Below, piece after piece: positions 1,176-22,501 of a stretch of DNA of 31,582 nt (position 1 is its first letter; each line of letters opens with the position of its first letter). The DNA comes from Bacilli bacterium (GTDB lineage Bacteria > Bacillota_I > Bacilli_A > RFN20 > CAG-826). The DNA is taken from positions 1-31,582 of the forward strand of contig JAFVUY010000119.1 of NCBI GenBank assembly GCA_017502465.1. Direction: 5' to 3'. Below the pieces are notes generated by a model. That model was not told the DNA's origin. It searched no databases and was given only the letters and a program-made list of their open reading frames with translations. A program made the position numbers and the translations under genes.

Positions 1176-1198
1176 TAAAATATAATAAAAATTTAAAA

Positions 1199-1250
1199 TA
1201 AAGGAGGAGAAGAGTATTTTTCTCTTCCTTTATTTTTTTAAATTGCAGAC
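1199..1250 (+). terminator. rho-independent terminator (imperfect hairpin aaggaggagaagag / ctcttcctt, then T-run)
   Basis: Inverted repeat followed by tatttttttaaa immediately after the stop of the small CDS. Confidence 0.45.
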
Positions 1251-3165
1251 AAGAAAGGATGGCTTTTTAAATATGATTACTCAAGATAATTTAAGTACTC
1301 GTGATGGTTTATATGCGAGAGCCAATGGTGTTCTATTGAATTCTGCTGTTGAAATAACAGATGCTTATGGTAATACTGGTACTGTTAAATCATTGGCAGA
1401 AAAAAGAGGATTTAATATTGGTAGCACTGAGGAAGAAAAAAAGGCAACTCATATTGATAACATTAATACTTATTTTAAATATTTAGATATTTTAGCAGCT
1501 TATGAAAATGTAGAACTAGGTAAGCTTTCTTTAGGGCAAGAGGTAGATCCAATCTCTTTTAGCTATTGGGAAAAAACCGTTAATAATGATGGAGTTATTA
1601 CTGAGGTAATAAAGAATGGTGAAGAAGAATTTTAGCCTATTTTTACTATGCTTCCCGCAGATGAACCTCGTTTTAAAGTAAATTTAAACACTAGAAGAAT
1701 TGAAATTCCTTCTGGGTTTATTGGTCAATAGGTTCAAAATGATAATTATGCAGAAACTATTTGGTTTGAAGTTGATAGATATTTTGATGCTACAGATTTA
1801 TATGCAACAGATATTTCTATTCAATGGGAAAATGGGAGAGATAAGGGTGTAACTCAAGCTTTTAATCCTATGGCTAATTTAAATATTCATTAGATTTATG
1901 GAAAAATTGTTTTTGGTTGGCCTTTAACCTCTAATATTACCAAAAATAGTGGTAATGTAAGATTTACTATTCGTTTCTATAAAGAAAGTGAAAGTACTGG
2001 AGAATGTGTTTACAATTTAACTACATTACCAATGAATTTAAAAATTAATGATGGTTTAGTAATTGAAGGTATAATGCCCACAGATGCTCATAAAGGTTTT
2101 TATGATAATTTAAAAGTAAAATCTTTCTATACTATTGTTCCTGCTGCTATGCCAGCATTAGCAGAACTTATTGCGGATGGCAAGAGTACTTCTGTAAGAG
2201 AAGGAGATTTAGAAAATGGATAGTTAAATCTTTTAGCCAGAGGCGATTTTAATGCTAGTGATAATGGCGGAAAAGGTACTTTGTCCTATGAATGGATTCG
2301 CTATATTGAAGATTCTGATGGTGATATTATTTTAGATCCTAGTTTTAAAGGAGAGGGGGTTCCTTTCTCTCATAGCAATGGAAATGAATATAATAAATTT
2401 ACCGCCAATGCTGCAGGAGCTTATGGAGTAAAAATTAGAAATTATTACGGTGGAGATACAAAATATTTTATTCCTTCTTATTATAAATTAAGTAATGGAG
2501 TTTAGGTTTATAATAGTGAGGAATTGTTTAAGATTCCTTATGCTTCTACCCCTATTTTTAAGAATGTTAATGAAAATAATTTAGAAGTATCTGTTAATGA
2601 CACTAAAGTTATTTCTTTTACTTTAGATAATGAAAAAAATTCTACTTATCAATGGCAGTATAGTAGTGATAATAGCAACTATAATGACATTGATGGTGCA
2701 AATACAACAAGTTTAACTTTTAATAGAACTACAGGGTTTAATGAAGGCTGGTATAAACTTTATGCAACTAATAATAGAAATGATAATAGTAAGAGCGCTT
2801 TAAGTGATTAGGCTTATATTGTTACTTATCCAGCTTAGCCTTATATGATTCAAAGCTTTACTGTAAATAATAAAAATATTAATGCAGGAAATGGTGTTAC
2901 TCTTATTGAATGTGCTGAAAATGAAAGTACAAGCATTACACCAAATCTCTCTGCCAACCCAAATAATATAAAAAGTTTAACCAGTTATTCAATAAAATGG
3001 TATCGTAATGATGTAGAAGTTACTAATGTAAATGGAAATACTTTAATTATAGATGATAGTGAACAAAATGGTGATGAACAAGATGGTCAATACATTTGTA
3101 GAGTAACCACTGTTTATAATGGCAATGAAACTTCTGAAGACTTTATTGTTATGATATATTTTTAA
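1243..3165 (+). CDS. large virion/fibre-like protein with C-terminal Ig-like domains, about 640 codons read through 8 in-frame TAG
   Basis: ORF-track pieces 1243..1635, 2032..2223, 2281..2505, 2524..2811 and 2845..3165 are all in frame 1 and separated only by TAG (1633, 1729, 1891, 2221, 2503, 2809, 2836). There is no TAA/TGA until TAA at 3163-3165, which is followed by AAAAGGAG. The C-terminal segments look like Ig/I-set domains (WYRNDVEV...GQYICRVTT; GWYKLYATN). ATG at 1273 with GGA upstream is an alternative start. Confidence 0.6.
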
Positions 3166-3190
3166 TATTAAATAAAAGGAGTAATGTTTT

Positions 3191-4030
3191 ATGATAACTT
3201 CACATCATGATTATAAAGCATAGCTTTATTAGTTAAATAATCCAAATCATAAGTTACAAATAACAAAACTTCCTTTAGATGAACCTTTTTATAAAATAGA
3301 TTTAAACAAAAGAACTATTTAGACTCCTGAATTTTTAAGTGTAAATTTAGACCATAATGCAGAAACAGTATTTTTTGAAGTAAATCGTTATTTTGATAAT
3401 ATTGATTTAGCGGATATGACTTGTATAATTAGTTTTACAAATGCAAATCCAAATAAAAAAGAAAATGGTTTTATTTACGCTCCACCTTTTTTAGATATTG
3501 TTACTAACCCAGGGAAAATTATTATTCCCTGGGTTATTGAAGGTCCTGCAACTTTATACCCAGGTATAATAACTTTTGCTATTCAATTTTATCATTTATC
3601 AAAAACATATAATGGAAAGACTGTTGAACAATATGAATAGTTTTATGGAGAAGGTAATCTTCCAGAATATATACGAGTAGGATAGGTTAGTCAAGACACC
3701 TTTAATTCTAAGTATCATTATTTAAGAAATGAAAAATCTGAATGTTATTATGATTCAGTTTATAATGAAGACAATATTTACTATGTAAGAAAATCTTAGG
3801 AAGAAATTAATGCTCTTGAAATTGGATATTATTATGATTATAATTTAAATACTTTACCTGTAAAAAGTAAAATTTTACATGGTATGGATGAAATTCGTAA
3901 TTTAGATAATACAAATTATAACTATGAAGTTGATACTTTGAAGGAAATTTGGGATGCCATCAACGAGATAAGAAATAGTTATGAAGATAAAAATATTTTG
4001 TATTGGATCATCCCAGAAGATGAAGAATAA
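3191..4030 (+). CDS. hypothetical fibre-associated protein (279 codons, 6 in-frame TAG), N-terminal domain paralogous to residues encoded at 1636-2031
   Basis: AAAAGGAG RBS, then ATG at 3191 (the first ATG at 3184 hits TGA at once). Frame is open to TAA TAA at 4028-4033 apart from TAGs. The segment DEPFYKIDLNKRTI-TAG-TPEFLSVNLDHNAETVFFEVNRYFDNIDL mirrors DEPRFKVNLNTRRIEIPSGFIGQ-TAG-VQNDNYAETIWFEVDRYFDATDL in the upstream gene. ORF-track 3416..3640 is a fragment. Confidence 0.5.
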
Positions 4031-4046
4031 TAAATGAGGTATTAGT

Positions 4047-4436
4047 ATGGAATGGCTTGATTTATTAAATGACATTTTTAGACTTTGTATTGTTCCTCTT
4101 TTGGCTGTTTTAACTACTTATCTAGTTAACTACATTAAAGCCAAAAGTAATGAACTTGTACAAGGCAATGAAAGTATGCTTGAAGCAAAATATATGACTA
4201 TGCTTGCGGAAACAATTACTGATTGCGTGCTTGCCACAAATCAAACTTATGTTGAAGCATTAAAAGATAAGAATGCTTTTGATGAAGAGGCATAGAAAGA
4301 AGCTTTCAGACAAACATATGAAGCAGTTCTCGCTGTATTAAGCGATGACGCAAAAGAATATTTAACTAATGCTTATGGAGATTTAACTATTTATTTAACT
4401 CAAAAAATTGAAGCAGAAGTTAATATTAATAAATGA
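4047..4436 (+). CDS. holin, Holin_LLH-like (N-terminal TM helix then charged helical tail), 1 in-frame TAG
   Basis: RBS TGAGGT precedes the ATG. N-terminal hydrophobic helix IFRLCIVPLLAVLTTYLV. The pattern QTYVEALKDKNAFDEEA-TAG-KEAFRQTYEAVLAVLSDDAKEYL...IEAEV resembles Lactobacillus phage LL-H-type holins. Ends at TGA 4434-4436 followed by a perfect terminator. Confidence 0.55.
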
Positions 4437-4446
4437 TAAAACAAAA

Positions 4447-4495
4447 ATGGGAGACACCTATATTTTTAGGTGTCTCCCATTTTTTTATTTTGCCC
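4447..4495 (+). terminator. rho-independent terminator (gggagacacc / ggtgtctccc stem, then T7)
   Basis: A 10-bp perfect inverted repeat with a 9-nt loop, followed by ttttttt. Confidence 0.75.
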
Positions 4496-4605
4496 TAGAA
4501 AAATTTTGGAAAATTTTTGGACATTCGCTGTAAATTTATTCCCAGTATTTTTCATATAATGGCGGAAGGGTTGGAAAAAATTTTACAGAAAGGAAACGTG
4601 CGCGT

Positions 4606-5007
4606 ATGTATAATCAACAAATGCCATATGGCTATTATCCGCAACCACAAAACTCTTATAGTCGTCAGCCCGCATCTACATCCTCTCAGATGATGCTAAA
4701 AGGACGTCCAGTATCATCAGTAGATGAAGTTAGAGCGACTGTAGTAGATTTTGATGGTTCAGTATTTTATTTTCCTGATATCGCAAACAAAAGAATCTAT
4801 ACAAAGTAGATTGGTTTAGATGGTTCTGCTATTTTATGTATGTATGAATTAAAAGAACTTCCTCCGGCAGAAACACCAATGATACCATCTAATTTTGTAA
4901 CAAGAGAAGAATTTGAAAGCGTTATTAATCAACTTAGGCAGGTAATGATGGCTCCACCTCAACCGGAACCTGTTCAAGAAAAACCTGCTCTAAATTTAAA
5001 TTTCTAA
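4606..5007 (+). CDS. hypothetical protein with Q/P/Y-rich N-terminus and conserved C-terminal domain (133 codons, 1 TAG)
   Basis: ORF 4606..4809 continues in frame past TAG (4807-4809) to TAA at 5005-5007. The N-terminus MYNQQMPYGYYPQPQNSYSRQP is Gln/Pro/Tyr-rich, and the layout is loosely reminiscent of spore-coat GerQ. Followed by AAAAAGGAGG. Confidence 0.4.
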
Positions 5008-5025
5008 AAAAGGAGGCAAAAATAT

Positions 5026-5268
5026 ATGATGCAAGTAAATCCTATGCAATTAATCTAGGCGATTAAAAGCGGACAGAACCCTCAGCAATTAATGCTAAGT
5101 ATTTTAGAAGGTCAAATGTCCAACACTCCCATGGGAGCAAATTTGTTAAATCTAGCAAGAAATGGAAATAGTAGAGAGATAGAACAAATTGCTCGCAATA
5201 TCTCTAAATAGCGAGGCATTGATTTTGATAAAGAATTTGCCGCCTTTCGTCAATAGTTGGGGGTTTGA
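5026..5268 (+). CDS. hypothetical small Gln-rich protein (80 codons, 3 in-frame TAG)
   Basis: AAAAAGGAGG RBS, then ATGATG at 5026. Frame is open to TGA at 5266-5268 apart from TAGs. Confidence 0.4.
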
Positions 5269-5290
5269 TAATTATTGGAGGTAAAAAATT

Positions 5291-6118
5291 ATGTTTAACA
5301 ATTCTAATGGCTATTCTTTATCTGATATCGCCGCAGTCACTGGCAACCGTTCTGGAGGAAATGGTTGGGGAGATGGCGACGGCTGGTGGATTATCCTGCT
5401 CTTCCTCTTTGCTCTTGGTGGATGGGGAAATTATGGCAACGGCTTTGGTGGCGGCGGTGGTTCTACTACTCGTGAAGAAATTGCTTACGGATTTGACATG
5501 AACGGCCTATCCAATGGCGTTCGTGGAATCCAATAGGGCTTATGTGATGGTTTCTATGCTATGAATACTGGTATGCTGAATGGCTTCGCAGGTGTTCAAA
5601 GTACATTATGCCAAGGCTTCTCTGGTGTAAATACTGCTATTTCTGACTTAGGTTATTCAACTGCAAATGCTATTAATGCTAGCACCGTAGCAGATATGTA
5701 GAACACTAATGTTATTACTGGTCAGTTAGCTGCAATGGCTGCTGATAATGCTGCTTGTTGCTGCGAAACTCAGCGTGCTATTGAACGTGGCTTCGCTGAT
5801 ACTAATTATAATCTGGCAACCCAGTCTTGCGATACTCGTCGTGCGATTGCCGATAGTACTCGCGATATTATTGATAGCAACAATGCTGGTGTTCGTTCTA
5901 TCCTAGACTTCTTAACTCAGGATAAGATTGCTTCTCTGCAAGCAGAAAACCAGACTTTAAAATTTGCTGCTTCTCAGCAAGCACAAAATAGTTACTTAGT
6001 AAGTCAGTTGCGCGAACCTTGCCCAATTCCTGCTTACTTTGTTCCAAATCCCAACTGCTGCTATGATGCCAGAGTGGTATATGGCAACAGTTGCTGCGGA
6101 AGTAATTATAACTTCTAA
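5291..6118 (+). CDS. Gly-rich, single-pass membrane, Cys-rich protein (275 codons, 2 in-frame TAG)
   Basis: ORFs 5291..5536 and 5735..6118 share a frame and are bridged only by TAGs. A GGAGG RBS is present. Gly-rich segments flank a hydrophobic helix (WWIILLFLFALGGW). The C-terminus is Cys-rich (AACCCE, NCCYDARVVYGNSCCGSNYNF). Confidence 0.5.
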
Positions 6119-6143
6119 TTGATGTAATGGAGGTTCATAAGAT

Positions 6144-6563
6144 ATGGAAATTACTGCTAATGCTTTATAGACAGTTAATGAAAATCAAAATGTACTATTT
6201 ACCGACACAGTTATTTGCGGAAGTTGCTCCATGATGCACAGAGACGGCAGTGGTCTGATTACTGTAAAAGGTATTACAGACCAGTGCCGCGCACGCTTCA
6301 AAGTAACCTTCGGCGGCAATATTGCCATTCCCGCAGGTGGCACCGTAGAAGCGATTTCACTTGCTATCTCATTAGATGGTGAGGCTATTGGAACAACTAC
6401 AATGATTGTAACTCCTGCCGCAGTAGAAGAATTTTGGAACGTATTCAGTGCTATCTTTATTGAAATTCCACGCGGTTGTTGCGCTTCTGTTGGAGTTCGT
6501 AATATCAGCACTCAGCCAATAGATGTTCAAAATGCTAATTTGATTGTAGAACGAGTAGCATAA
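6144..6563 (+). CDS. BclA C-terminal-domain-like (C1q/TNF-like jelly-roll) protein, 139 codons, 1 TAG
   Basis: GGAGGT RBS, then ATG at 6144. TAG at codon 9, then the ORF-track 6231..6563 segment. The C-terminus ...NANLIVERVA and the beta-rich, G/T/A/I-rich pattern closely resemble the C-terminal domain of Bacillus exosporium BclA (...SASIIIEKVA). Confidence 0.5.
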
Positions 6564-6576
6564 GGAGGTTTAAAGT

Positions 6577-7314
6577 ATGAGTAAAGATATGATTAAATCA
6601 ATGAAACAAACCTTAATGTGTTGCGCTCAAGGTCAAATGGGACATCTTGAAAGCGTTGATGCTAAGGAACTTGGCGAAGTAATTGATATGATTAAAGACC
6701 TTGAAGAAGCAATGTATTATTGTGTAATCGTTGAAGCGATGGAAAAAGGTGAGCAAGAAGGATAGTCTCGTTACTACCACGATCCTTATATGTATAAAGA
6801 TTGGGATCATGGTCGTATGTTCTATCCTATGAGTATCAATTATTATAGTGAAAGTGGTAAATATAATCCAGAATAGGGTGATATGAAACATTACTTCACT
6901 GAAAACGAAATGAGATATAATAATGGAACTATGTATAATGATGGAACCATGTACAGCAGAGGCCGTATGTATGCTTCCGGTGGAAATGGAGGCTCTGGCG
7001 GCGGCAGTGGTGGCAGTGGAAATGGCAATGGCTCTTCTGGAAGTCGTTATTTTCACGAATACGAAATGCCATATGATATGATGATGCGTGACCATCGTGA
7101 AGGTCAAAGCCCTATGAGTCGCCGCAGATATATGGAAGCCAAAGAAATGAAGCAGGATAAAAATACTCAATTACAGGAATTAGAAAAATATATGAAAGAA
7201 CTTTCTCATGATGTAGTTGAAATGATTGAAGATGCTTCTGCGGAAGAAAAGAAATACTTGGCAAACAAGATTTCTGCTTTGGCAACCAAGGTATCTAAAT
7301 TAGAAAATGATTAA
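6577..7314 (+). CDS. low-complexity protein (M/Y-rich repeats, GGNGGSGGGSGGSGNGNG tract, C-terminal coiled coil), 245 codons, 2 TAG
   Basis: AAGGAGG RBS. ORFs 6577..6765 and 6883..7314 share a frame and are bridged by TAG at 6763 and 6874. Repeats NGTMYNDGTMYSRGRMYASG. Ends at TAA 7312-7314, overlapping the next ATG. Confidence 0.45.
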
Positions 7315-7621
7315 TATCAATGGTGAAGATTGGAGAATCCTTTTGGCTTCTCCTCTTCATCCTTTATTATGTATGCCTAATGGCGACTATGCGATAGGGG
7401 CTTGCGATGACCCGTCAAAAACAATAGTTATAAATGAAGAACTTAATAACTATTATAGAAAAAAAGTGTTATGCCACGAATTAACTCATGCCGCAATGTT
7501 TAGTTATAATGTAGATTTAACATATGACCAAGAAGAGTTGGTAGCTGACTTGGTCGCAACATATGGGCAAGAAATAATTGGCATGACTAATTTAATATTC
7601 AAAAGATTAAAAGATAAATAA
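7307..7621 (+). CDS. small HExxH zinc-metallopeptidase-like protein (ImmA/IrrE-like fold suspected)
   Basis: 104 aa with the motif KTIVINEELNNYYRKKVLCHELTHAAMF. Translationally coupled to the upstream gene (ATGATTAA overlap). Ends at TAA 7619-7621. Confidence 0.5.
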   Translation: MININGEDWRILLASPLHPLLCMPNGDYAIGACDDPSKTIVINEELNNYYRKKVLCHELTHAAMFSYNVDLTYDQEELVADLVATYGQEIIGMTNLIFKRLKDK

Positions 7622-12859: not shown

Positions 12860-13426
12860 TTACCAATTGTGGCCTTCTATAACCTCAATAACATTATTAA
12901 CCACTTTAGAAACAGCATAATTATTATTATAAACTATCCAAAAATTAAATTTGGGTTCATTGTAAAGGAGACTTTCAAAATCATAGAAATCAGTTTGAAA
13001 ACGACGACAAATTTCAAGAACGTCTGGATTATGTTCTCTTTCCAATTGTCTTATTAGACGCTCTTTATCATCAGTTTCAATTAAAATAGGCAGAACTTTG
13101 ATTTTATCTTTTTTTTCAAGTTTTAAAAGAGAACGAATTCCAGTAGGATTAAACACCCCGATATTAATTTTATCTTCTTTTAAAGCACTCATTTGAGTAC
13201 CATAAAACCATTTTCTAAATTCTGCTGTTTCTAACATTTTTTGATTATGAAATTCTTCTTCTGTTAAGAAATTATAATCAACGCCATCTTTTTCATAATC
13301 TCTGGGTGGGCGAGTGGTACAACTTACAATCCCATGGAATCGTGGGTCATTAAGACCCATGATTCCTTTTTGAATTGTATCCTTGCCCGCTCCGGCTTTA
13401 CCCATTAACGCAACAATTTTATACAT
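12860..13426 (-). CDS. guanylate-kinase-like nucleoside monophosphate kinase
   Basis: P-loop GKAGAGKDT and guanylate kinase signature TTRPPRDYEKDGVDYNFLTEEEF...AEF..YGT. The start overlaps the polymerase stop. Confidence 0.75.
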   Translation of the reverse strand: MYKIVALMGKAGAGKDTIQKGIMGLNDPRFHGIVSCTTRPPRDYEKDGVDYNFLTEEEFHNQKMLETAEFRKWFYGTQMSALKEDKINIGVFNPTGIRSLLKLEKKDKIKVLPILIETDDKERLIRQLEREHNPDVLEICRRFQTDFYDFESLLYNEPKFNFWIVYNNNYAVSKVVNNVIEVIEGHNW

Positions 13427-16400
13427 CTTCTTCTAATTCTCCTTGATATCTAGTGCTTCGCAACTTTATATCACCATTAGGATATACTTCATCAATCTTA
13501 TATAACTGATGCCCGCCAGTTGAATTATACTTCTTCGCAATAAAATTATCTCCATTGCGAATACCCTGGACTACAATCATACTGCCACGATTGAACCAAG
13601 ATTTTTCAACTACATGCTTCACGCCATCTGCTCCTCGTTCAGAAATCTGCTTATCAAACAGAGAGAAATATTCTTTTCTAAATTTAACTTCTACTACGCC
13701 TTCACGAGTTAAAAGAGTTACAGTTCCTTTATCTTTATTCTTCGCAATACAAGTTCCGCAGATTTTATGAAGTTTGAAAAGATTTATAGTTTTACCATTC
13801 TTGGTAAATGCTCTATCTACCATTGGTTCTTCTGGTAAATCAAAGAAATTAGAAAATCCATACTTAGGATAATTTACATTATTCAACTCATGGCTGTGAT
13901 AATAGAAACATAAAACCTCCATTTCCCAAGCAGAAATATTACCGTTTTTGGCATATTTTTTGTAGTTTTCTAAAAAGATTTTTTCATTGAGGGATTGAAG
14001 TATGTCGTTGTGATTTTCTGCTATCCAGTTTCTAAAAACATCCATGTAAATTTGATAAACTTTTTTATCCCATTCTTTGGAAGATATGAAGTTATTTTCT
14101 TTGATTAAATCTTCTCTTTCAATTTCAATTAAGAAATTAATTGCTCGTTCATCTAATCTATATAAGTCATTATTTACTTTACATACAGCCTTTAAATATC
14201 TATTAAATTCATATACTCTACGAGCAAGAACTCTTTCGTCTGTGTCTTCTGGAATAAGACCATACTTCATCATAGTAGGCATATTCTGTAAAGTAATTCT
14301 TTTTTTCTTATCACAAGTTTCCCAAATATACCAACCCATACAGAGTTTTCTATCCATCATTTCATCAAAAGCACCAGCCTTAATTAGAGAAATCATTGCT
14401 TGACGAGTGGGTTTTACTCGGTTCAAGAAATCTCGTGGGGAAACATAAGGACGATTTTCAATAATTGTATTAACCAAATCGTCGCCAATATTCAATAATC
14501 CTTTTAATCCAAAAAGAATTTGATTATTTTCTACATCTGGAACAAATCCAAAAGATGAAGTGTTAATATTTGCTAAACTAACTTTAATACCTGCTTCACG
14601 AATTTCGCCAATTGCCTTTGCAATCTTACCATAATTGGTGCTTTCATCCGCTTCATCTTCTTCGCTTTCAATAGAACCACTATTTATCAGAAGACAAGCA
14701 GTATTCCAATAAATAGGATTGAAGTTAGTTGCCAAATATAATGTTTGCATACCTACAAAGGAATATGCTAATGCGTGAATAATAGAGAATGAATAACCCA
14801 TCTGCGGCCCTGCTCCATATTTCCACACATACTCACCTAATCTTTTTCTCTTTGCTCTATCAAGAACTTGCTGATGAAGTTGAGGGATTTTATCCATCTG
14901 TTTCTTACCTACAATTTTACGAGCATTATTTGCTTCGCCCAAGGTAAATCCGCAGATATTTTCATCCATCAACATACGCATTAACTGTTCCTGACTAGGT
15001 GGAACGCCATAGGAAGAAAGGAAGTAAGGTTCAAGAGTTTTTTGCTCCTCTTTTGTTAAACCAAAGTCATCCATTTCTTTATACCAAAGATTAATATTAT
15101 TCTTAAAACGAACATATTTATCAATTGGCATTTCGCCACCTTTTTCGCCAGTCATCAATCGCATCAAGCCATTTGCGTCGGCCATTTCAAGTGCGGTAGT
15201 AGGCTTAATCTTTTTTGCTGCCTGAGCACCCACGCTACTATCAAACTGGAAACAACTAATAACAGCATTATTAGCCAAAGCATTCCACATTCTTTTATCC
15301 GTTTGAGGAAGAACATTTGGATGCAAATATTTATTATAGACTTCACGCAAACTTAATTCTGGTTCAATGACACCATCTGCTTGTAAAAATTCAATCGTTT
15401 TAATGATAATATCTTGAACCGAAGTTAACAAAAAGTCATACTTAACACTGCCTGCGGCTTCTTGGTCATGAAGGTCCCACTGGGTTACAATTGCTCCGCT
15501 CGGAGTTCTCATAATCGCTGCGGTATCATAAATATTTTCATCAAATAAAATAACACCAGATGCATGGCTGCCTCGTCGGCAAACCAGGCCTTCAATGCCT
15601 CCAATAATTTCAATCAGACCAGGATACTGATTTGCCGCATTAATAAATTGAGTTTGAGGTTTTCTATCCTTTGAAGGATCACCATGAATCAAATCATTTA
15701 AACTCCACAAAAATCCTCTTTCTACTGGAACCAATGAAGATAAATATTGGGCTTCATCAACATCAATTCCATCTGGATATTCATCAGAACGATAACCTCT
15801 ACACGCAGTTAAGATTGCTGATTTAGTTCCTTCTGTGCCGAAAGTACAGACTTGAACCAAACCTAACTCTCCTCGTTCCTCTCTAATCTTTGCGAAAATC
15901 TTTTTAAGTTTTGAAGGAGCAAGGTCAATATCAATATCGCCCAATTCAACTCGTTCATCATTAAGATATCTCCAAAATGGCAAGTCCCATTTAATTGGGT
16001 CCAATTGAGTGATACCAAGAAGATAATGATTCAAACCAGAACAAGCAGAACCTCGTCCCGCACCTACCGTGCTGCCGCACTCCCAGAACAAATCAATATA
16101 GTGTTGAAGTGTATTAGGATATGCAAACATACAGGTTTCAAGTTTTTCACCAATAATTCTTTTTACACGAGCTTCTTCTTCCAGTCTATCAAGATAACGA
16201 GCATCATTAATTAAATCTAAATCTCGTAATTTTTCAAGACATTGATTTACCCAATATCTTTCTTGAATATTGTCAGATACACACAGTTCTTTTAAAACTT
16301 TATGTCTTCTATTTCCTTCACTAAACCATCCTGTTGTTTTAGGATAATTTTTAACTTCTACTTCTGGAATTGACTGATGATATTCAAGACTATAAAATTC

Positions 16401-17288
16401 AATCTGATTTTTCATATTGATACTATTTTCAAAAATCTTATCAATATATTCATCATCAAACGAAAGTCTTAAAATATCTCTACATTCATCGGGAGACATA
16501 AGATAAGTTGTTTCATAGAATGCATCAACTTCTCTTTCACCGCCTTTTGAATTTAGATAAGCCTTATGAACCCATCTATCTTCTGGTCTAGTGTAATGAG
16601 AGTCAGAACCGACACAAACATTCAAATTAAACTTTTCTGCCAATCGGCGAATTCTGTCATTTACTAATTTCTGCTCTCCGCTTTTACCGGGTGCTACTTC
16701 TAGATAAAAGTTTTCTTTGCCGAAAACACTGGTACAATAATCTAAAAAATAAATAATATTGTTATAGTGTTCTTCTGCGTTCTTCCAATCATCTACGTTT
16801 TCGCAATCTTCTAATAGCATAAGTTCACTGCCAAGGAATCCACCCATACAAGCAGTTGTCGCAATCACATGGCCTTTATAATTTTTCATTACACTGGCCA
16901 ATTCATTATAAAGAAGTGGAACTCTTTCCATTCTTCTATCAGTATAAACATTATACCAAGCAATTGAACTTAATTCCTTCAATGCCCGATAACCAATTTT
17001 ATCTTTTGCAATTAAGATAAAGTGATAATACTTTTGACCACTACTTCTATCTTTTGTGAGATAAATTTCATTACCTAATGCAATTGTAAAATCTGGATTT
17101 GTTTCTCTAATTTTCTTCGCATACTTATTTACCTTAATATGAGAAGATAAACACTCATGGTCTGTGATGGCAATGCCACCCAGACCAAGATTAATTGCTG
17201 TATCAATCAGTTTTTCTGGACGATTAATACAATCAAGTAGACGAAGATTTGAATATTCAGTATGTGTATGATTATCAAAAAAAGTCAT
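13419..17288 (-). CDS. dnaE: DNA polymerase III alpha subunit-like replicative polymerase (DnaE-type, N-terminal PHP domain); 1289 aa, no TAG
   Basis: PHP N-terminus MTFFDNHTHTEYSNLRLLD. Palm motif GDIDIDLAP. Large uninterrupted ORF with a TGAGG RBS. Confidence 0.85.
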   Translation of the reverse strand: MTFFDNHTHTEYSNLRLLDCINRPEKLIDTAINLGLGGIAITDHECLSSHIKVNKYAKKIRETNPDFTIALGNEIYLTKDRSSGQKYYHFILIAKDKIGYRALKELSSIAWYNVYTDRRMERVPLLYNELASVMKNYKGHVIATTACMGGFLGSELMLLEDCENVDDWKNAEEHYNNIIYFLDYCTSVFGKENFYLEVAPGKSGEQKLVNDRIRRLAEKFNLNVCVGSDSHYTRPEDRWVHKAYLNSKGGEREVDAFYETTYLMSPDECRDILRLSFDDEYIDKIFENSINMKNQIEFYSLEYHQSIPEVEVKNYPKTTGWFSEGNRRHKVLKELCVSDNIQERYWVNQCLEKLRDLDLINDARYLDRLEEEARVKRIIGEKLETCMFAYPNTLQHYIDLFWECGSTVGAGRGSACSGLNHYLLGITQLDPIKWDLPFWRYLNDERVELGDIDIDLAPSKLKKIFAKIREERGELGLVQVCTFGTEGTKSAILTACRGYRSDEYPDGIDVDEAQYLSSLVPVERGFLWSLNDLIHGDPSKDRKPQTQFINAANQYPGLIEIIGGIEGLVCRRGSHASGVILFDENIYDTAAIMRTPSGAIVTQWDLHDQEAAGSVKYDFLLTSVQDIIIKTIEFLQADGVIEPELSLREVYNKYLHPNVLPQTDKRMWNALANNAVISCFQFDSSVGAQAAKKIKPTTALEMADANGLMRLMTGEKGGEMPIDKYVRFKNNINLWYKEMDDFGLTKEEQKTLEPYFLSSYGVPPSQEQLMRMLMDENICGFTLGEANNARKIVGKKQMDKIPQLHQQVLDRAKRKRLGEYVWKYGAGPQMGYSFSIIHALAYSFVGMQTLYLATNFNPIYWNTACLLINSGSIESEEDEADESTNYGKIAKAIGEIREAGIKVSLANINTSSFGFVPDVENNQILFGLKGLLNIGDDLVNTIIENRPYVSPRDFLNRVKPTRQAMISLIKAGAFDEMMDRKLCMGWYIWETCDKKKRITLQNMPTMMKYGLIPEDTDERVLARRVYEFNRYLKAVCKVNNDLYRLDERAINFLIEIEREDLIKENNFISSKEWDKKVYQIYMDVFRNWIAENHNDILQSLNEKIFLENYKKYAKNGNISAWEMEVLCFYYHSHELNNVNYPKYGFSNFFDLPEEPMVDRAFTKNGKTINLFKLHKICGTCIAKNKDKGTVTLLTREGVVEVKFRKEYFSLFDKQISERGADGVKHVVEKSWFNRGSMIVVQGIRNGDNFIAKKYNSTGGHQLYKIDEVYPNGDIKLRSTRYQGELEEDV

Positions 17289-17526: not shown

Positions 17527-18651
17527 TTATTTCCTCACAATCACAACTTTACTTCTAGCACGAGTAATAGCAGTATATAGCCAGCGTGCGTGTTCTTCAC
17601 CAGTAGGCCATCTTTCTTCAAAAACAAGAACTTTATCCCATTCACTACCTTGTGCTTTATGGGTAGTAATAGCATAAGCATATGAAAAATCATATGGGCC
17701 TTCTCTTTTTCTTTTTCTCAATTGAGCTTGCTGATAACTAGTCAATGCAGGCACAGATTGAGTTAAGTACTTATAGTCAATAGGAATGTAATCAAAAGTA
17801 TCTGTGGGGTCATCATCAATAGAAACGGTTGTATATAAATGAGTAACAGGTTCTTTACAAATCCAAGGAGGAAAATATACATCCTTCTTATCCATATGAG
17901 TAATAGTTCCAATAGAACCATTGGTTAAGTCCCATTCACCTGAATTAGAACAAAATCCCCAGTGATTAGTTAAACCGATGATTTTATCACCGACACAAGG
18001 CTCAAATCCATATCCTTTAATTGCGCGGACAGTGCAATTAATTTCTTTACGTTTAGCATTGGTAGCACAAAGAATTTGGTCTGCCCATGAATACATCCCT
18101 GTATTTAAATCTTTTTCTGAAACAATCATTACTTGTTCATTTTTACAAGGAAAATCTGCTATATCCTTGCCTTCACGCACCCACATAGATAAACGAATAA
18201 TTTCACTATCTTGTGCCTGCCGCATAATCTCATCCAGAAATACGTGCGGATTATCAAGCACATGGTTATCACTATCTTTATCTACTGGGGGTAATTGACC
18301 GGGGTCGCCAGTTGCGAGAATATAAACTCCACGAGTTAGCAGAAGTTCCCACATATCTTTTGGAAGCATAGATACTTCATCTACTACAATGACTTTTAAA
18401 TGTGCGAATTCTGTTTTTGATTTCTTTACAAAAATAAATCCACTACCATCTGATTTTGGACGAGCGTGATAAAGTAATCTATGTGCGGTGGTCGCGTTAG
18501 GACATCCCTTTGCACGTAGAACAGTAGCAGCCTTACCTGTAAAAGCAACATAGCAAACTTCATTATTTTTATCAACACCCAAAGCGTCAATAATAAAGTT
18601 AATTAAAGTTGATTTACCTGTGCCAGCATTTAAGCGTAGCCAGCAATACAA
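17527..18651 (-). CDS. SF1B Dda/RecD-like DNA helicase (main body)
   Basis: Walker A AGTGKST, Walker B VIVVDEVSM, ATGDPGQLPPV, ITTHKAQGSEWDKV, LYTAITRARSKVVIV. The ORF-track start is a TTG, not an ATG. Confidence 0.8.
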   Translation of the reverse strand: MYCWLRLNAGTGKSTLINFIIDALGVDKNNEVCYVAFTGKAATVLRAKGCPNATTAHRLLYHARPKSDGSGFIFVKKSKTEFAHLKVIVVDEVSMLPKDMWELLLTRGVYILATGDPGQLPPVDKDSDNHVLDNPHVFLDEIMRQAQDSEIIRLSMWVREGKDIADFPCKNEQVMIVSEKDLNTGMYSWADQILCATNAKRKEINCTVRAIKGYGFEPCVGDKIIGLTNHWGFCSNSGEWDLTNGSIGTITHMDKKDVYFPPWICKEPVTHLYTTVSIDDDPTDTFDYIPIDYKYLTQSVPALTSYQQAQLRKRKREGPYDFSYAYAITTHKAQGSEWDKVLVFEERWPTGEEHARWLYTAITRARSKVVIVRK

Positions 18652-18722
18652 GTATAAGGTTTTCTTTCCTTGTATCTGGCTACGGCAATTTTCAATCCTT
18701 CTTCTTGCTTTTTAGTTAGCAT
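18630..18722 (-). CDS. N-terminal 30 codons of the Dda/RecD-like helicase in the -1 frame relative to 17527..18651 (frameshift, split gene or indel)
   Basis: ATG at 18722 (overlapping the HNH stop) encodes MLTKKQEEGLKIAVARYKERKPYTCIAGYA, then TAA. The Dda-like N-terminal consensus (LTEGQKNAF..I..AIKEKK..VTINGPAGTGKTT) spans this segment plus the AGTGKST of the downstream frame. Confidence 0.4.
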   Translation of the reverse strand: MLTKKQEEGLKIAVARYKERKPYTCIAGYA

Positions 18723-19233
18723 CAAGATTTACTTCCTCACTTTCTTCAAAATTTAAATCTTCAATATTCCATAAATTATCATGTAATTCTTTATGACAAT
18801 TTGAACAAATTAAAATACATTTTTTACTTTCTTCTATTGCATCTAATAATTTAAAATGGTCATTGCTTATAGTAAAATCTTTCTAAGAAGGGTCTATGTG
18901 ATGGAACTCTAATGCTTTTATGCATTTATTATAACCACATCTAACACATCTTCCGCCTCGCTGTTCTTTTATTTTTGCTAAAAACATTCCGCGAGTAAGT
19001 TGAATACCATTTGGCATACAGTCATAGCAACAAATTCGCTAACTTGCGGCGGCGCTTTTTGGAGTAAATGTTTTTCCACAAATAGGACATACTTTTTCAG
19101 AAATACCTCTTATACGACCTTTTTCAGCATATTTTTTTCTACGCGAAGCGTTTAAACATTCATTGCTACAATACTTTTTTGTAGATTTTTGTGCTTCAAA
19201 TTCTTTTCCACATATTATACATTTTACTATCAT
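18712..19233 (-). CDS. HNH endonuclease with N-terminal zinc ribbons, 173 codons, 2 in-frame TAG
   Basis: ORF 19039..19233 ends in TAG and continues in frame to TAA at 18714-18712. The continuation encodes GGRCVRCGYNKCIKALEFHHIDPS-TAG-KDF...CILICSNCHKELH (HNH core). The N-terminus has CIICGK...CSNEC and CPICGK CxxC pairs. AAGGAG RBS. Confidence 0.7.
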
Positions 19234-19341
19234 ATTTTATTTTTCTCCTTATAAAAATATTTTCTATATTATTTAAAAAATATCTTTATAATATTCGCCA
19301 GTTATACCCAAAGTTTTTTTCTAACGATATAACCGGCGAAA

Positions 19342-20259: not shown

Positions 20260-20838
20260 TCAATATATTCCAAATTCTTCATAAAAATTATAATCTTCTA
20301 CAAGTATAATTGGTTCTTCATCCCAGTCCATTGTCCATGGGTCATAAGAATTAGTCTTAATAGACTTTATTTCTTCTATATAAATGTCTTCAATCTCACT
20401 ATTTGATTCAAAAATTTCCAAATCACTTTTTTGTTTTGCCGTGTCCGCCCCAGTGAAGCCTGCTAATGCCTCAGATAATTTTCTCATGGATTCTGAAAAC
20501 TCACTTACACTTACTCCAAGAGAAAGAAAATCTCTTGTATGGTGAATAGCATTATCTATATCTGGCTCTTTATCAAATAAATAATTTGTTTGACATTCTA
20601 TTTCATCAGTGCGGCATTGAAGAGCAGCAACTTCTGTATATAATTCATTTGTTAAAGCAGGAATTTTATTTTCTATCTATTTCACTCTTACATCTAATTC
20701 CTCTATTTTTGTTTTTAGAAATTTTAGATTTTCTGAAATAGCCTTAAACTCTGCTGTAATATTTTTATCAGAAATAATAATCAACTCTTTTCGCAATTTC
20801 ATAATCTTCAATTTGAATTTGAGGACTTGTAAATCCAT
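20260..20838 (-). CDS. coiled-coil hypothetical protein (about 192 codons, 1 in-frame TAG); start uncertain
   Basis: ORFs 20677..20865 and 20260..20487 share a frame and are joined across TAG (20679-20677). The first ATG is at 20838, and the ORF-track M at 20865 is a TTG. It overlaps the RecJ-like C-terminal extension. Confidence 0.4.
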
Positions 20839-22501
20839 TAAAACTATTTTTCTAAAAAGTTCCAATAATATCTAAAACTAACATTCCATTATCTGGCGGA
20901 GTTAATTCTTCAATTTCATCCTCTTTCATAAAGAATTTTATGAAACTTATTCTATCTTGCGGGAGATCAATTCGCATAGTCTTTCCTCCTGCTCCAATGA
21001 ATCGGAGGCTAGATTTATCAAGTTTGACTCCTCTAATTGCGATGAGAGGTTCGTCAATGTTTTGTCCCCATAACTCTCGCCAATTTGCTAACTCATAAAT
21101 AAGATTTCCTGTAAGTTCACTTGCATCTAAGATGAAGTCTACTCTATATAAGCGTTCAAAAGATACTTCACTAAGTAATAAGTTAATTGTACTAACAAAA
21201 TTGGAAAAATCTTTATCAAGAACTCCTACGCCAAAAGCACCTTGATGTCCCTCCGCATACATAGTTAAATTTGTATCTGCGAGAAAATCTTTTAAATTAG
21301 GAAAATTATAACTGCGGCCAGAACCTTCCCAACTCTTAACTCCATCTCTAATCATTTCTTGTAAGATTAAAGTAGGTCTTTGATATTTCGCAGCCAACTG
21401 GTTCGCAATCAAACCAGATAGATTTTTATCAACCAATCCATTGGGAATGGGAATAATTAAAATCTTATTTTCAAGAAGATTATATTCTTCAATAATTTTA
21501 TCAATCGTTTCAAGACCTTCGTCTTGAATTCTTTTTTGTCTATTCTTTACATTTGTACTGGTGCGACCGGCCTGTTCCGCACGGGTTTCAAACTGACCTT
21601 TACATCCTCTCTTGGTAGAAGGAATCATTTCATATGCTCTAAAATCAAGCATACTTTCAAAAATCAATATCTTTTCATCATAGGAGCCAGAACGGTTAAT
21701 CGCATTAATAAAAGGTGCTACATAGAAAGCAACAGCAACAGGAGTAACTCCTCCTTCAAATTGTCTAGCATTTCTATCAACCATTTCTTTGAAAAATGGA
21801 TTTCTAATATTTAAAAGTCCTTTTTGAATTAATGCCTGTGTTTCAAAATCTCTGGAATCCATCATATCAGCAATCATCCCAAGAGAAACTAAATCTAAGA
21901 AATTGTCTGCTTCATCAATTCCCAGTAGTTCATCAATATAGCAACAGAATTTATATGCCATACCTACACCAGATAAAGATTTAGTAGGATAATCACAAAG
22001 TTGATTATTGATTACGCACGCATTTTCTGAAACCCTGGGAGCCTCATGATGGTCAATAACAAGAACATCAATGCCGGCGTCTGCAAGATTTTTGTGAATA
22101 TCAAATTCATTAGAACTAGAATCAATAGCAATTATTAATTTAGTTCCTTTTGGAATACGGTCTTCAACAATACCATGATGTTTATCTAACTAAGCCTTAT
22201 AAATAATATTGTTCTGAGCAAAATGCGGAAACAATCTATTTAAATAGTTAATAAATAACGCTGCCGAAGTAAAACCATCACAGTCACTATCTATTGGCAT
22301 ATAAACTAAACTATTTTCATTTATATGTCTTAATAGCATTTTTACACCTGTTTCAATATTAGCAACTCTACTAGGAGCAATAATATCAGCATCACTAAGA
22401 TTTAAAAAATGCTAAATATTTTCCCTTTTGATTCCTCTATTTAAAAGAACCTATTCAATCATTGTAGGTTCTGTTTGTTTTGAAATCAATTCATATCTCA
22501 T
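20768..22501 (-). CDS. DHH-family phosphoesterase, RecJ-like ssDNA exonuclease; about 577 codons, 4 in-frame TAG
   Basis: ORF 20852..21961 extends upstream through 3 TAGs (22453, 22414, about 22190). That adds DHH motif I (IDSDCDGFTSAAL) and motif III (LVIDHHEA) plus an RGI-type N-terminus (VLLNRGIKRENI). The DHHA1-like domain (GHQGAFGV, NRSGS) lies in the reported ORF. The reported 'stop' at 20854-20852 is TAG, and the frame continues 28 codons to TGA at 20770-20768. Start is ATG 22501 or 22462. Confidence 0.65.

What the first reader, a model, noticed from the sequence alone, without database searches (positions are those of the whole stretch)
18620..18730. Helicase N-terminus is split across two frames at GCT-TAA-ATG (candidate programmed -1 frameshift, indel or assembly error)
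Frame A runs from ATG 18722 to TAA 18632-18630. It encodes MLTKKQEEGLKIAVARYKERKPYTCIAGYA, which is the expected Dda/RecD-like N-terminal helix and the beginning of the P-loop strand (compare T4 Dda ...VTINGPAGTGKTT).

The Walker A itself (LNAGTGKST) and the remaining 370 residues are in the -1 frame. That frame has no ATG, only a TTG at 18651.

A one-nucleotide slip at ...tac gct taa atg... would yield ...CIAGYA-LNAGTGKST.... The hexamer GCTGGC is also duplicated 17 nt apart, which would suggest a small duplication.
Basis: seen in the sequence. Interest (0 to 1): 0.6.

Follow-up and report, generated by a model that had tools for sequence, protein, structure and literature searches.

The report
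Short ribosome hop in phage helicase
A phage helicase gene is interrupted inside its ATP-binding motif by an 8-base gap starting with a stop codon; about 60 related phage contigs carry 5-8-base gaps at the same codon, always behind a conserved RNA hairpin, and ribosomes most likely hop over them, which would make this a second, widespread natural case of translational bypassing linked to a mobile nuclease gene.

Summary
On the minus strand, frame A (ATG 18722) ends ...CIAGYA-TAA (18632-18630), and the rest of the helicase (AGTGKST... to 17527) lies in the -1 frame.

It is not an assembly error or a pseudogene. About 60 contigs from more than 20 datasets carry an interruption at exactly this codon, and the downstream part is under strong purifying selection (dN/dS 0.02-0.18).

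It is not a -1 frameshift. The inserts are 5, 6, 7 or 8 nt, so all three frame offsets occur. There is no slippery site and no downstream structure.

It is not a TTG start. 20 of 52 carriers have no start codon in the resumed frame.

Only skipping the insert restores the invariant family motif GYAGTGKST. Every insert starts with TAA or TGA and ends with an Ala-like triplet (GCN, ACY, GTW, TCC). Every insert follows a carrier-specific hairpin of about 50 nt (median -21 against -9 kcal/mol) whose 3' arm ends at the take-off codon.

The best explanation is a programmed short translational bypass, GCU (18635-18633) to GCU (18627-18625). The gap arrived on an HNH homing-endonuclease cassette, as shown by a mosaic breakpoint at the gap and by the HNH occurring only beside interrupted genes. 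This parallels T4 gene 60/MobA. The translational step is inferred, not shown.

The parts
18712..19233 (-). HNH endonuclease gene (173 codons plus stop). It has two in-frame TAG codons (19041-19039 and 18885-18883) that are read as sense. Its 3' end overlaps the helicase ATG by 11 nt.
   Evidence: CxxC...LEFHHIDPS[TAG]KDF...CSNCHKELH. One search gives a weak Pfam HNH hit (19.1 bits, cutoff 21.4). In one search the DNA matches genes annotated as HNH endonuclease in other phages. One search finds homologs at the same position in other carriers.
18625..19341 (-). Approximate extent of the mobile cassette: intergenic DNA, the HNH gene, the recoded 5' end of the helicase, and the 8-nt gap.
   Evidence: Against L003 (no HNH, no gap) the flanking genes and the helicase 3' of the gap are 95-98% identical, but the helicase 5' 104 nt are only 65.6% identical and the HNH is absent. 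Against L001 (HNH plus gap) the HNH is 85.7% identical, the helicase 5' end 95.2%, and the region 3' of the gap only about 75%.
18633..18722 (-). Helicase segment 1 (frame A): ATG 18722 to the take-off codon, encoding MLTKKQEEGLKIAVARYKERKPYTCIAGYA.
   Evidence: It matches the N-terminus of 119 of 120 homologs.
18635..18684 (-). Carrier-specific RNA hairpin. The outer stem pairs CGUAGCCAG (18684-18676) with CUGGCUACG (18643-18635). The inner helix pairs AUACAAG (18675-18669) with CUUGUAU (18652-18646). The last paired base is the G of the take-off codon.
   Evidence: -26.5 kcal/mol, z -3.7, 0 of 200 shuffles fold as well; stem of at least 7 bp in 51 of 52 carriers against 6 of 40 non-carriers; constraint at synonymous sites in the arms, seen only in carriers; median MFE -20.9 against -9.3 kcal/mol, p about 1e-14. 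Column-wise covariation is not significant.
18633..18635 (-). Proposed take-off codon GCT (Ala30).
   Evidence: the codon is GCY in 46 of 47 distinct carriers, while non-carriers use all four Ala codons.
18625..18632 (-). 8-nt coding gap TAAATGCT: stop codon TAA (18632-18630), spacer AT, and landing triplet GCT (18627-18625).
   Evidence: absent from L003; 28 distinct gap sequences of 5-8 nt, all starting with TAA or TGA and all ending in GCN, ACY, GTW or TCC.
17527..18624 (-). Helicase segment 2. It resumes at GGC 18624-18622 (G-T-G-K-S-T of Walker A at 18624-18607) and runs to the stop at 17529-17527.
   Evidence: Pfam AAA_30, AAA_19 and UvrD_C_2. PDB relatives RecD2 and Dda; dN/dS 0.02-0.18 between carriers.
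18649..18651 (-). TTG chosen by ORF callers as the start of the truncated helicase. It is probably not used.
   Evidence: no SD-like motif, absent in many carriers, and the truncated product fits the family profile far worse.

Best explanation
The gene at 18722-17527 (minus strand) encodes one SF1B Dda/RecD-like helicase. Its Walker A codons are split by an 8-nt coding gap (TAAATGCT, 18632-18625).

Proposed decoding. The ribosome translates frame A until peptidyl-tRNA-Ala sits on GCU (18635-18633) with UAA in the A site. Termination there is slow. A stable hairpin (18684-18635), which the ribosome has just melted and whose 3' arm ends at the G of the take-off codon, re-zips on the mRNA-exit side and drags the mRNA forward. 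The peptidyl-tRNA lets go and re-pairs with the next Ala-like triplet, GCU 18627-18625. Decoding resumes at GGC 18624-18622, giving ...CIAGYA-GTGKST..., the family's canonical P-loop.

Proposed origin. The gap came in with a free-standing HNH homing-endonuclease cassette (about 19341-18625). It probably breaks the nuclease's target in the conserved Walker A DNA, so carrier genomes are not cut while the protein stays unchanged.

Shown here: the gap and its 5-8-nt relatives at the same codon in about 60 contigs; purifying selection on the downstream part; the universal stop; the Ala-like last triplet; the carrier-specific hairpin; the mosaic breakpoint; and the association between the HNH gene and the gap.

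Inferred: that removal of the gap is translational; that the hairpin acts as a forward driver and ruler; and that the gap confers nuclease immunity.
For: Restores the family motif. 119 of 120 best homologs read ...G[YF]AG[TS]GKS... with no indel, which equals the gap-removed reading. In 52 of 52 carriers the skip product scores 6.4-8.5 bits above the local frameshift or readthrough product.

A family of gaps. Gaps of 5, 6, 7 and 8 nt (28 distinct sequences) sit after the same GGC TAY GCY. Net offsets are -1, 0 and +1, so one frameshift type cannot explain them.

Stop codon. In a sample chosen by homology alone, 20 of 80 loci are interrupted, and all 20 gaps start with TAA or TGA. The base after the stop is never T.

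Landing triplet. It is GCN in 15 gap types, ACY in 7, GTW in 5 and TCC in 1. All lie within one mismatch of an Ala codon. Five nt is the shortest gap that can hold a stop plus a triplet with a central C.

Functional gene. Downstream ORFs are intact at 350-384 codons. dN/dS is 0.02-0.18 at dS up to 0.6 between carriers that share a gap.

Hairpin.. Published work shows that exit-side mRNA pairing drives forward bypassing in T4 gene 60 (bioRxiv 10.1101/2024.12.09.627546). A refolding upstream hairpin stimulates forward slippage and attenuates -1 slippage at a stop-codon site on 70S ribosomes (PMC6321510).

Cassette. The mosaic breakpoint falls at the gap. An HNH homolog lies upstream in 20 of 49 carriers and 0 of 41 non-carriers, p = 8e-7. 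The precedent is MobA/gene 60, where the bypass insert protects against MobA nicking (bioRxiv 10.1101/2022.08.31.505936).
Against: There is no protein, RNA or reporter data, so the translational step is inference.

Take-off and landing codons are identical in the window (GCT/GCT) but not across the family (for example GCC to GCA, GCT to ACT, GCC to GTA). Efficient gene 60 bypassing relies on matched codons.

At take-off the hairpin's 3' arm lies inside the ribosome, so the zipping-driver role is a model and not an observation.

Column-wise covariation of the stem is not significant (3 pairs change on both sides; 141 of 500 shuffles do as well). Support rests on conservation at synonymous sites and on energy contrasts, which shared ancestry of the cassette could partly explain.

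Most carriers in the unbiased sample (18 of 20) lack the HNH gene, so the immunity role must be argued indirectly.

The profile-score advantage over frameshift products is modest (about 7 bits).
Confidence: 0.65

Rival explanations
1. Local recoding at the stop codon. This would be a -1 frameshift in the window, with +1 frameshift or stop readthrough in the 7-nt and 6-nt variants. It would give helicases with 2-3 extra residues in the P-loop (GYA-LN-AGTGKST here).
For: The frames differ by -1 in the window. A stop codon in the A site is a known trigger of shifting. For the 5-nt class the -1 product, ALTGTGKS, still fits the loose [AG]xxxxGK[ST] pattern. The profile-score penalty is only about 7 bits.
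Against: There is no slippery heptamer (read directly from the sequence). tRNA-Ala cannot re-pair at -1 (CGC) or at +1. There is no significant downstream structure. The strong structure is upstream, a placement shown to attenuate -1 slippage (PMC6321510). Three different mechanisms would be needed at one site. The products would have P-loops of differing length, but the family shows no indel here in 119 of 120 homologs or in 41 non-carrier loci. For the window the product would have Leu at the first Walker A glycine position.
Confidence: 0.1
2. The gap is removed before translation. Either the transcript is processed, or RNA polymerase, pushed by the nascent hairpin, moves forward without synthesis and realigns on the downstream Ala-like triplet. 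The mRNA would then be contiguous.
For: The hairpin ends 2 nt before the gap, a geometry reminiscent of hairpin-driven forward translocation at intrinsic terminators (my own knowledge). The Ala-like last triplet could equally serve to re-anneal an RNA 3' end. No data here distinguish RNA-level from ribosome-level removal.
Against: No such process is known for gaps of 5-8 nt without homopolymer runs. The universal in-frame TAA or TGA directly after the take-off codon (all 20 of the unbiased carriers), the absence of T after the stop, and the GCY restriction of the take-off codon are signatures of the ribosomal A and P sites. Similarity to the take-off site is limited to the triplet and does not extend upstream.
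Confidence: 0.07
3. Split or truncated protein. Translation ends at TAA, giving a 30-aa peptide, and the helicase core is made separately from the TTG at 18651 or another internal start.
For: Gene callers annotate it this way (P0006). T4 topoisomerase is genuinely split by the MobA insertion.
Against: 20 of 52 carriers have no ATG, GTG or TTG in the resumed frame before a stop. None of the other 32 has an SD-like motif. The truncated product loses the first beta-strand and the first Walker A glycine, and scores 45-61 bits lower. Frame A stays open and family-like in every carrier.
Confidence: 0.05
4. A dead gene or an artefact: a sequencing or assembly indel, or a helicase recently inactivated by nuclease-induced mis-repair.
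For: An 8-nt insertion with a stop would normally be inactivating. Dda-type helicases can be dispensable (my own knowledge of T4 dda).
Against: An independent assembly has the identical junction. About 60 contigs from more than 20 datasets carry structured gaps at the same codon. No second lesion occurs in any complete downstream ORF. dN/dS is 0.02-0.18 between carriers that share the same gap. The hairpin, stop and landing triplet are conserved at synonymous sites.
Confidence: 0.03

Closest known systems
T4 gene 60 programmed translational bypassing with the MobA homing-endonuclease cassette
   Same: A non-coding insert sits inside a conserved replication gene. A stop codon lies directly 3' of the take-off codon. 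The peptidyl-tRNA is proposed to re-pair at a matching downstream codon (GCU to GCU here). [quoted passage not shown] Distribution among relatives is sporadic and the sequences are mosaic.
   Different: The gap is 5-8 nt rather than 50 nt, so there is no room for the A-site take-off stem-loop or the internal SD-like GAG. The 5' hairpin is much stronger, abuts the take-off codon (0 nt rather than 9 nt away) and is the best-conserved signal, whereas the gene 60 5' stem-loop is poorly conserved. The host gene is a helicase and the site is the Walker A motif. Landing triplets are often only near-cognate. There is no sequence relationship to gene 60. The gap persists in many genomes that have no nuclease gene.
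Streptomyces phage Hau3 terminase 10-nt inserts (candidate UUA-triggered bypassing; PMC10732093)
   Same: Short (10-nt) inserts in an essential phage gene, bypass supported by mass spectrometry in E. coli, and proposed 5' stem-loop and SD stimulators suited to a short gap.
   Different: There the trigger is a rare 'hungry' UUA sense codon tied to host physiology, not a stop codon. Only a few genomes are known. No homing-endonuclease link or Walker A location is described.
Unprogrammed 'stop-hopping' and short hops in E. coli (Weiss et al. 1987; O'Connor et al. 1989, as cited)
   Same: A peptidyl-tRNA detaches at a codon followed by a stop and re-pairs a few nucleotides downstream at a cognate or near-cognate triplet (+5 and +6 hops are described).
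   Different: Those events are low-level and lack stimulators. Here the site is a conserved natural gene feature with a dedicated hairpin, under selection in many genomes.
RF2 (prfB) +1 frameshift and hairpin mimics of its upstream SD duplex (PMC6321510)
   Same: A stop codon in the A site combined with a duplex just upstream of the P/E sites pushes the ribosome forward.
   Different: That shift is +1 onto an overlapping codon. Here the displacement is 5-8 nt onto a non-overlapping triplet, and the duplex is an intramolecular hairpin of about 50 nt.

Membership tests
Programmed translational bypassing (the functional class exemplified by T4 gene 60) | Two ORF segments are separated by a non-coding gap whose removal restores a conserved, collinear protein. 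| tested here: met
   Removing 18632-18625 gives CIAGYAGTGKST, matching 119 of 120 homologs. The same holds for all 52 carriers scored.
Programmed translational bypassing (the functional class exemplified by T4 gene 60) | A stop or slow-to-decode codon lies immediately 3' of the take-off codon. | tested here: met
   TAA at 18632-18630. All 28 gap types start with TAA or TGA, and all 20 gaps in the sample where this was not forced do so.
Programmed translational bypassing (the functional class exemplified by T4 gene 60) | Take-off and landing codons are matched and read by the same peptidyl-tRNA. | tested here: inconclusive
   The window has GCT and GCT, so the feature is met there. Across the family the landing triplet is GCN in 15 of 28 types and a one-mismatch neighbour (ACY, GTW, TCC) in 13 of 28.
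Programmed translational bypassing (the functional class exemplified by T4 gene 60) | Stimulatory mRNA structure. | tested here: met
   A carrier-specific 5' hairpin ends at the take-off codon. There is no gene 60-like stem-loop within the gap, because the gap is too short.
Programmed translational bypassing (the functional class exemplified by T4 gene 60) | A single polypeptide spanning the gap is actually made. | not testable with these tools
   This needs mass spectrometry or a reporter assay.
T4 gene 60 / MobA element (homologous family) | A homologous cassette inserted in a type II topoisomerase large-subunit gene, with a gap of about 50 nt. | tested here: not met
   The host gene is an SF1B helicase and the gap is 8 nt. 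This is an analogue, not a member.
-1 programmed ribosomal frameshift | A slippery heptamer X XXY YYZ at the shift site. | tested here: not met
   Frame A reads ...TGT ATT GCT GGC TAC GCT TAA, which contains no such heptamer.
-1 programmed ribosomal frameshift | A downstream stimulatory structure and a conserved -1 offset in orthologues. | tested here: not met
   The downstream 85 nt fold with z -1.45, and 19 of 200 shuffles fold as well. Orthologous gaps give offsets of -1, 0 and +1.
Free-standing HNH homing-endonuclease cassette (intron-less homing, T4 Mob-like) | HNH nuclease motif. | tested here: inconclusive
   CxxC...HH...N...CxxCH is visible in the translation. The Pfam HNH score is 19.1 bits, below the 21.4 cutoff. 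The DNA matches genes annotated as HNH endonuclease.
Free-standing HNH homing-endonuclease cassette (intron-less homing, T4 Mob-like) | Sporadic presence among close relatives, with a mosaic (co-conversion) tract next to the gene. | tested here: met
   L003 lacks the cassette although its flanks are 95-98% identical. The breakpoint falls at the gap.
Free-standing HNH homing-endonuclease cassette (intron-less homing, T4 Mob-like) | The carrier allele differs from the target allele at the recognition site, giving self-immunity. | tested here: inconclusive
   The HNH is found only beside interrupted genes (20 of 49 against 0 of 41). This is consistent with the feature, but the cleavage site is unknown.
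Free-standing HNH homing-endonuclease cassette (intron-less homing, T4 Mob-like) | Site-specific cleavage of the cassette-free allele. | not testable with these tools
   This needs an enzyme assay.
SF1B Dda/RecD-like helicase | Walker A GxxxxGK[ST], Walker B, and the AAA_30 plus UvrD_C_2 domain architecture. | tested here: met
   After skipping the gap the motifs are GYAGTGKS and VVDEVSM. Pfam AAA_30 scores 1e-22 and UvrD_C_2 scores 1e-16. PDB relatives are RecD2 (3e1s) and Dda (3upu).

The most novel reading that the evidence does not exclude
These 5-8-nt gaps are a previously undescribed, widespread class of obligatory programmed ribosome hops, present in about a quarter of this phage helicase family. 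A strong hairpin on the mRNA-exit side, abutting the take-off codon, would act as both driver and ruler for a very short bypass. The function would be an anti-homing shield that breaks a nuclease target inside an unchangeable protein motif (Walker A) without altering the protein. The gap is kept even after the nuclease gene is lost, because it protects against nuclease-bearing relatives.
Probability: 0.5. Interest if true: 0.85.

Novelty: new variant of a known kind. Interest (0 to 1): 0.8.

Why it matters
Natural programmed bypassing in bacteria and phages has rested almost entirely on T4 gene 60 and its direct homologs, described as 'an isolated phenomenon' (bioRxiv 10.1101/2022.08.31.505936).

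An independent family would matter for four reasons.

1. It offers dozens of natural variants (four gap lengths, 28 gap sequences, variable landing triplets, hairpins of varying strength). That amounts to a ready-made mutational series for testing how exit-side mRNA refolding moves ribosomes and how little codon-anticodon pairing is enough for landing.

2. It would show that the arms race between homing endonucleases and their targets has reached the same solution twice: insert non-coding bases in the target and let the ribosome skip them.

3. It has practical consequences for annotation. Gene callers currently truncate these helicases at a spurious TTG or split them in two (P0006; a 30-aa ORF is called in L004).

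4. It occurs in TAG-recoded gut and rumen phages, which adds a second layer of non-standard decoding to genomes that are already hard to annotate.

Tried and rejected
tRNA scan of the window: none found.

Loose collection scans, TAYGC N{2,31} GGNACNGGNAARTC.

Column-wise covariation of a 13-bp stem. It was not significant because the core stem hardly varies and the inner helix changes register between lineages. I replaced it with synonymous-site entropy and per-sequence folding.

The lead that Bacillus phages AR9 and PBS1 might be cultured carriers, because their alignments start at residue 25. Rejected: their genes are contiguous with a divergent N-terminus. No GenBank phage is more than 40% identical to this helicase.

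A window-wide scan for other genes split in the same way. The output was too noisy to interpret, and no other case was evident.

The AAATTT search was irrelevant. The slippery-site check was done by reading the codons directly.

Rfam: no family matches the hairpin. The only hit is a sub-threshold match elsewhere.

The GCTGGC repeat as evidence of a duplication: rejected, because it reflects repeated Ala-Gly codons and is not conserved.

The observation that the two substitutions inside the gap are 'silent in both frames' (window against L001) was considered as evidence for translation of the -1 frame. Rejected: GCY followed by TRA automatically gives YTR (Leu) in the -1 frame.

Structure prediction was not run. 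It would not distinguish the decoding models decisively.
Full report
**1. The observation**

On the minus strand, ATG 18722 opens a frame encoding MLTKKQEEGLKIAVARYKERKPYTCIAGYA, which stops at TAA 18632-18630. The -1 frame carries ...LNAGTGKST... and stays open to 17529-17527. Its only upstream start codon is TTG 18651. GCTGGC occurs twice, 17 nt apart.

The local sequence is tgt att gct ggc tac GCT TAA AT GCT ggc aca ggt aaa tca act. Deleting 8 nt (TAAATGCT, 18632-18625) yields C-I-A-G-Y-A-G-T-G-K-S-T, a canonical GxxxxGK[ST] Walker A. A -1 slip would instead give G-Y-A-L-N-A-G-T-G-K-S-T.

**2. What homologs say**

The gap-removed protein has thousands of relatives. Of the best 120, 119 read ...[CV]I[AS]G[YF]AG[TS]GKST... 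without any indel. The exception, P0006 (79% identical), begins MYCWLRLNAGTGKS. That is the same mis-called ORF.

Its DNA comes from two samples (L001, L002) and has GGC TAC GCC TGA AT GCA GGA: the same 8-nt position with a different sequence. P0001 (97% identical; L003) is uninterrupted. A Logan assembly (L004) is identical to the window, including the gap.

Assembly error is therefore excluded.

**3. A family of gaps**

Pattern scans and a homology-based sample recovered about 60 contigs from more than 20 datasets. Most are 75-200 kb IMG/VR phage contigs, and a few are gut or rumen MAG contigs. In all of them the helicase is interrupted directly after GGC TAY GCY.

There are 28 distinct gap sequences: 4 of 5 nt, 5 of 6 nt, 6 of 7 nt and 13 of 8 nt. 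The net frame offset is therefore -1, 0 or +1 depending on the lineage.

In the 80 loci chosen purely by protein homology, 20 (25%) are interrupted. All 20 gaps begin with TAA or TGA, which the search did not force. The base after the stop is never T.

The last three bases of every gap are GCN (15 types), ACY (7), GTA or GTT (5) or TCC (1). Each is an Ala codon or a one-mismatch neighbour. Five nt is the shortest gap that can hold a stop plus a triplet with a central C.

The take-off codon is GCY in 46 of 47 distinct carriers, whereas non-carriers use all four Ala codons.

**4. The interrupted genes are functional**

Every complete carrier keeps an uninterrupted downstream ORF of 350-384 codons. 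Between carriers that share the same gap, dN/dS of the downstream part is 0.02-0.18, with dS up to about 0.6. Frame A upstream stays open and family-like in all carriers.

The pseudogene explanation is therefore rejected.

**5. Which decoding?**

I scored three products against a profile built only from uninterrupted homologs.
- The skip product beats the local frameshift or readthrough product in 52 of 52 carriers, by 6.4-8.5 bits.
- Products restarted in the resumed frame score 45-61 bits lower.
- 20 of 52 carriers have no start codon in that frame, and none of the other 32 has an SD-like motif.

Read directly from the sequence, there is no X XXY YYZ heptamer in frame A. tRNA-Ala cannot re-pair at -1 (CGC). 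The 85 nt downstream show no significant structure (z -1.45).

A single mechanism that works for offsets of -1, 0 and +1 and always restores GYAGTGKST has to skip the whole gap.

**6. A carrier-specific hairpin**

In the window, CGUAGCCAG (18684-18676) pairs with CUGGCUACG (18643-18635), and the last paired base is the G of the take-off codon. An inner helix pairs AUACAAG (18675-18669) with CUUGUAU (18652-18646). The 89-nt region folds at -26.5 kcal/mol, z -3.7, and 0 of 200 shuffles fold as well.

A stem of at least 7 bp is present in 51 of 52 distinct carriers, against 6 of 40 non-carriers.

Column-wise covariation is not significant, because the core stem hardly varies. Two other tests do give a clear signal.
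- Third-codon-position entropy in carriers is 0.57 bits in the arms against 1.19 in the loop. In non-carriers it is 1.55 against 1.37. For example, GGC has C in 47 of 47 carriers against 7 of 37 non-carriers.
- Per-sequence folding of the 55 nt ending at the take-off G gives a median MFE of -20.9 kcal/mol (z -4.85) in carriers, against -9.3 (z +0.19) in non-carriers. GC content is equal and p is about 1e-14.

The inner helix keeps its pairing with different sequences and registers, for example TACAAG/CTTGTA, TCACAGT/ACTGTGA, ATCACG/CGTGAT and CCCGCTAT/ATAGCGGG. Rfam has no matching family.

**7. Link to a mobile nuclease**

Directly upstream lies an HNH-type endonuclease gene (19233-18712). 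It has two in-frame TAG codons and overlaps the helicase start.

The comparison with relatives is a clean mosaic.
- Against L003 (no HNH, no gap), the flanking genes and the helicase 3' of the gap are 95-98% identical, but the helicase 5' 104 nt are only 65.6% identical.
- Against L001 (HNH plus gap), the HNH is 85.7% identical and the helicase 5' end 95.2%, while the region 3' of the gap is about 75%.

The breakpoint is the gap itself. So the HNH gene, the helicase 5' end with its hairpin, and the gap move together as a cassette.

Across distinct loci with at least 700 nt of upstream sequence, an HNH homolog sits at the same position in 20 of 49 carriers and in 0 of 41 non-carriers (Fisher p = 8e-7). 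Carriers without it have RecJ-like or other genes upstream, so the gap outlives the nuclease gene.

**8. Mechanism (inference)**

The features found here are a stop in the A site, a take-off codon restricted to GCY, an Ala-like landing triplet, and a strong hairpin immediately 5' of the P site. These are the ingredients of translational bypassing.

Published work gives three precedents.
- Pairing of mRNA as it exits the ribosome drives forward movement in gene 60 (bioRxiv 10.1101/2024.12.09.627546).
- A refolding hairpin placed next to the E site stimulates forward slippage and attenuates -1 slippage at a stop-codon site on 70S ribosomes (PMC6321510).
- Short hops over stop codons occur at low level even without signals (cited).

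My proposal is that the melted hairpin re-zips while the ribosome waits at UAA and pulls the mRNA forward by 5-8 nt. Peptidyl-tRNA-Ala then re-pairs at the Ala-like triplet, and decoding resumes at GGN. The narrow 5-8-nt range would reflect the minimum distance between a duplex at the mRNA exit and the P-site codon.

The role I propose for the gap is protection of the Walker A-coding DNA from the HNH nuclease. In MobA/gene 60, sequence polymorphisms alone did not block nicking but the bypass insert did (bioRxiv 10.1101/2022.08.31.505936).

None of these steps has been observed here.

**9. Comparison with known systems, and novelty**

This works like T4 gene 60/MobA, but it is not a member of that family. 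The host gene is different, the gap is 8 nt rather than 50 nt, there is no stem-loop or SD within the gap, and the dominant signal is a strong 5' hairpin that abuts the take-off codon.

It also resembles the 10-nt inserts in the Streptomyces phage Hau3 terminase (PMC10732093), which are triggered by a rare sense codon.

Full-text searches of open-access papers and bioRxiv found no description of this helicase case. No cultured phage in GenBank carries it.

I rate it a new variant of a known kind. The features themselves are very likely real. Confidence in translational bypass as the mechanism is about 0.65.

**10. Caveats**

- All the evidence is comparative.
- Many loci come from one metagenome (IMG 3300045988) and are phylogenetically related, so the counts are not independent events.
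- Landing triplets are often only near-cognate.
- Hairpin conservation may partly reflect shared ancestry of the cassette.
- The nuclease's target site is unknown.
- The literature search cannot see subscription-only papers.

Noticed in passing
whole window; e.g. + strand 1-7621; HNH gene TAGs at 19041-19039 and 18885-18883: The phage appears to read TAG as a sense codon. Coverage by ORFs of at least 100 codons rises from 75% to 93% when TAG is treated as sense, and fragmented + strand ORFs fuse into long genes. Residues opposite TAG codons in HNH homologs are most often Gln, then Lys. No suppressor tRNA lies in the window. TAA and TGA remain stops, and all gaps use only those two.
   Followed up: partly
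window 19234-19341 and L003:3578-3766: In the 96%-identical relative L003, a 62-codon ORF occupies the place of the HNH cassette. The cassette seems to have replaced it together with the helicase 5' end rather than simply inserting.
   Followed up: partly
window 18712-18722: The HNH gene's last codons (…CTT GAT GCT AAC TAA) overlap the helicase ATG by 11 nt, and AGGAGG/GAGGAAG lies just upstream. The two genes are probably translationally coupled. The same arrangement recurs in other HNH-bearing carriers, where the HNH match always ends about 100 nt before the GYA codons.
   Followed up: no
L014 vs L272; L005 vs L261/L270: Very close relatives (99% and 93-94% amino-acid identity downstream) differ in the gap. 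L014 has TAAAGCT and L272 has TAAAACT. L005 has TAAATGCA (8 nt) while L261 and L270 have TAAGGTA (7 nt). So gap length and landing triplet change on short evolutionary timescales while the gene stays under selection.
   Followed up: partly
L292, L310, L316, L322, L323, L330 (genome contigs): Carrier helicases also occur on contigs binned into Mollicutes, Anaeroplasmatales, Endomicrobiaceae and Clostridia MAGs from gut and rumen samples. These may be mis-binned phage contigs or prophages, and they hint at Firmicutes/Mollicutes-type hosts.
   Followed up: no
window 13419-17288 and 20768-22501 (minus strand): The helicase sits in a replication module with a 1289-aa DnaE-type PHP/Pol III alpha polymerase and a RecJ-like DHH protein. 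In L003 these carry the Pfam families PHP, DNA_pol3_alpha, DHH and RecJ_OB.
   Followed up: no
window 19128-19179 (minus strand): There is a weak, sub-threshold Rfam match to Clostridium-PBP RNA (29.2 bits against a gathering score of 94.4, E = 0.12) inside the HNH coding region. It is most likely chance.
   Followed up: no
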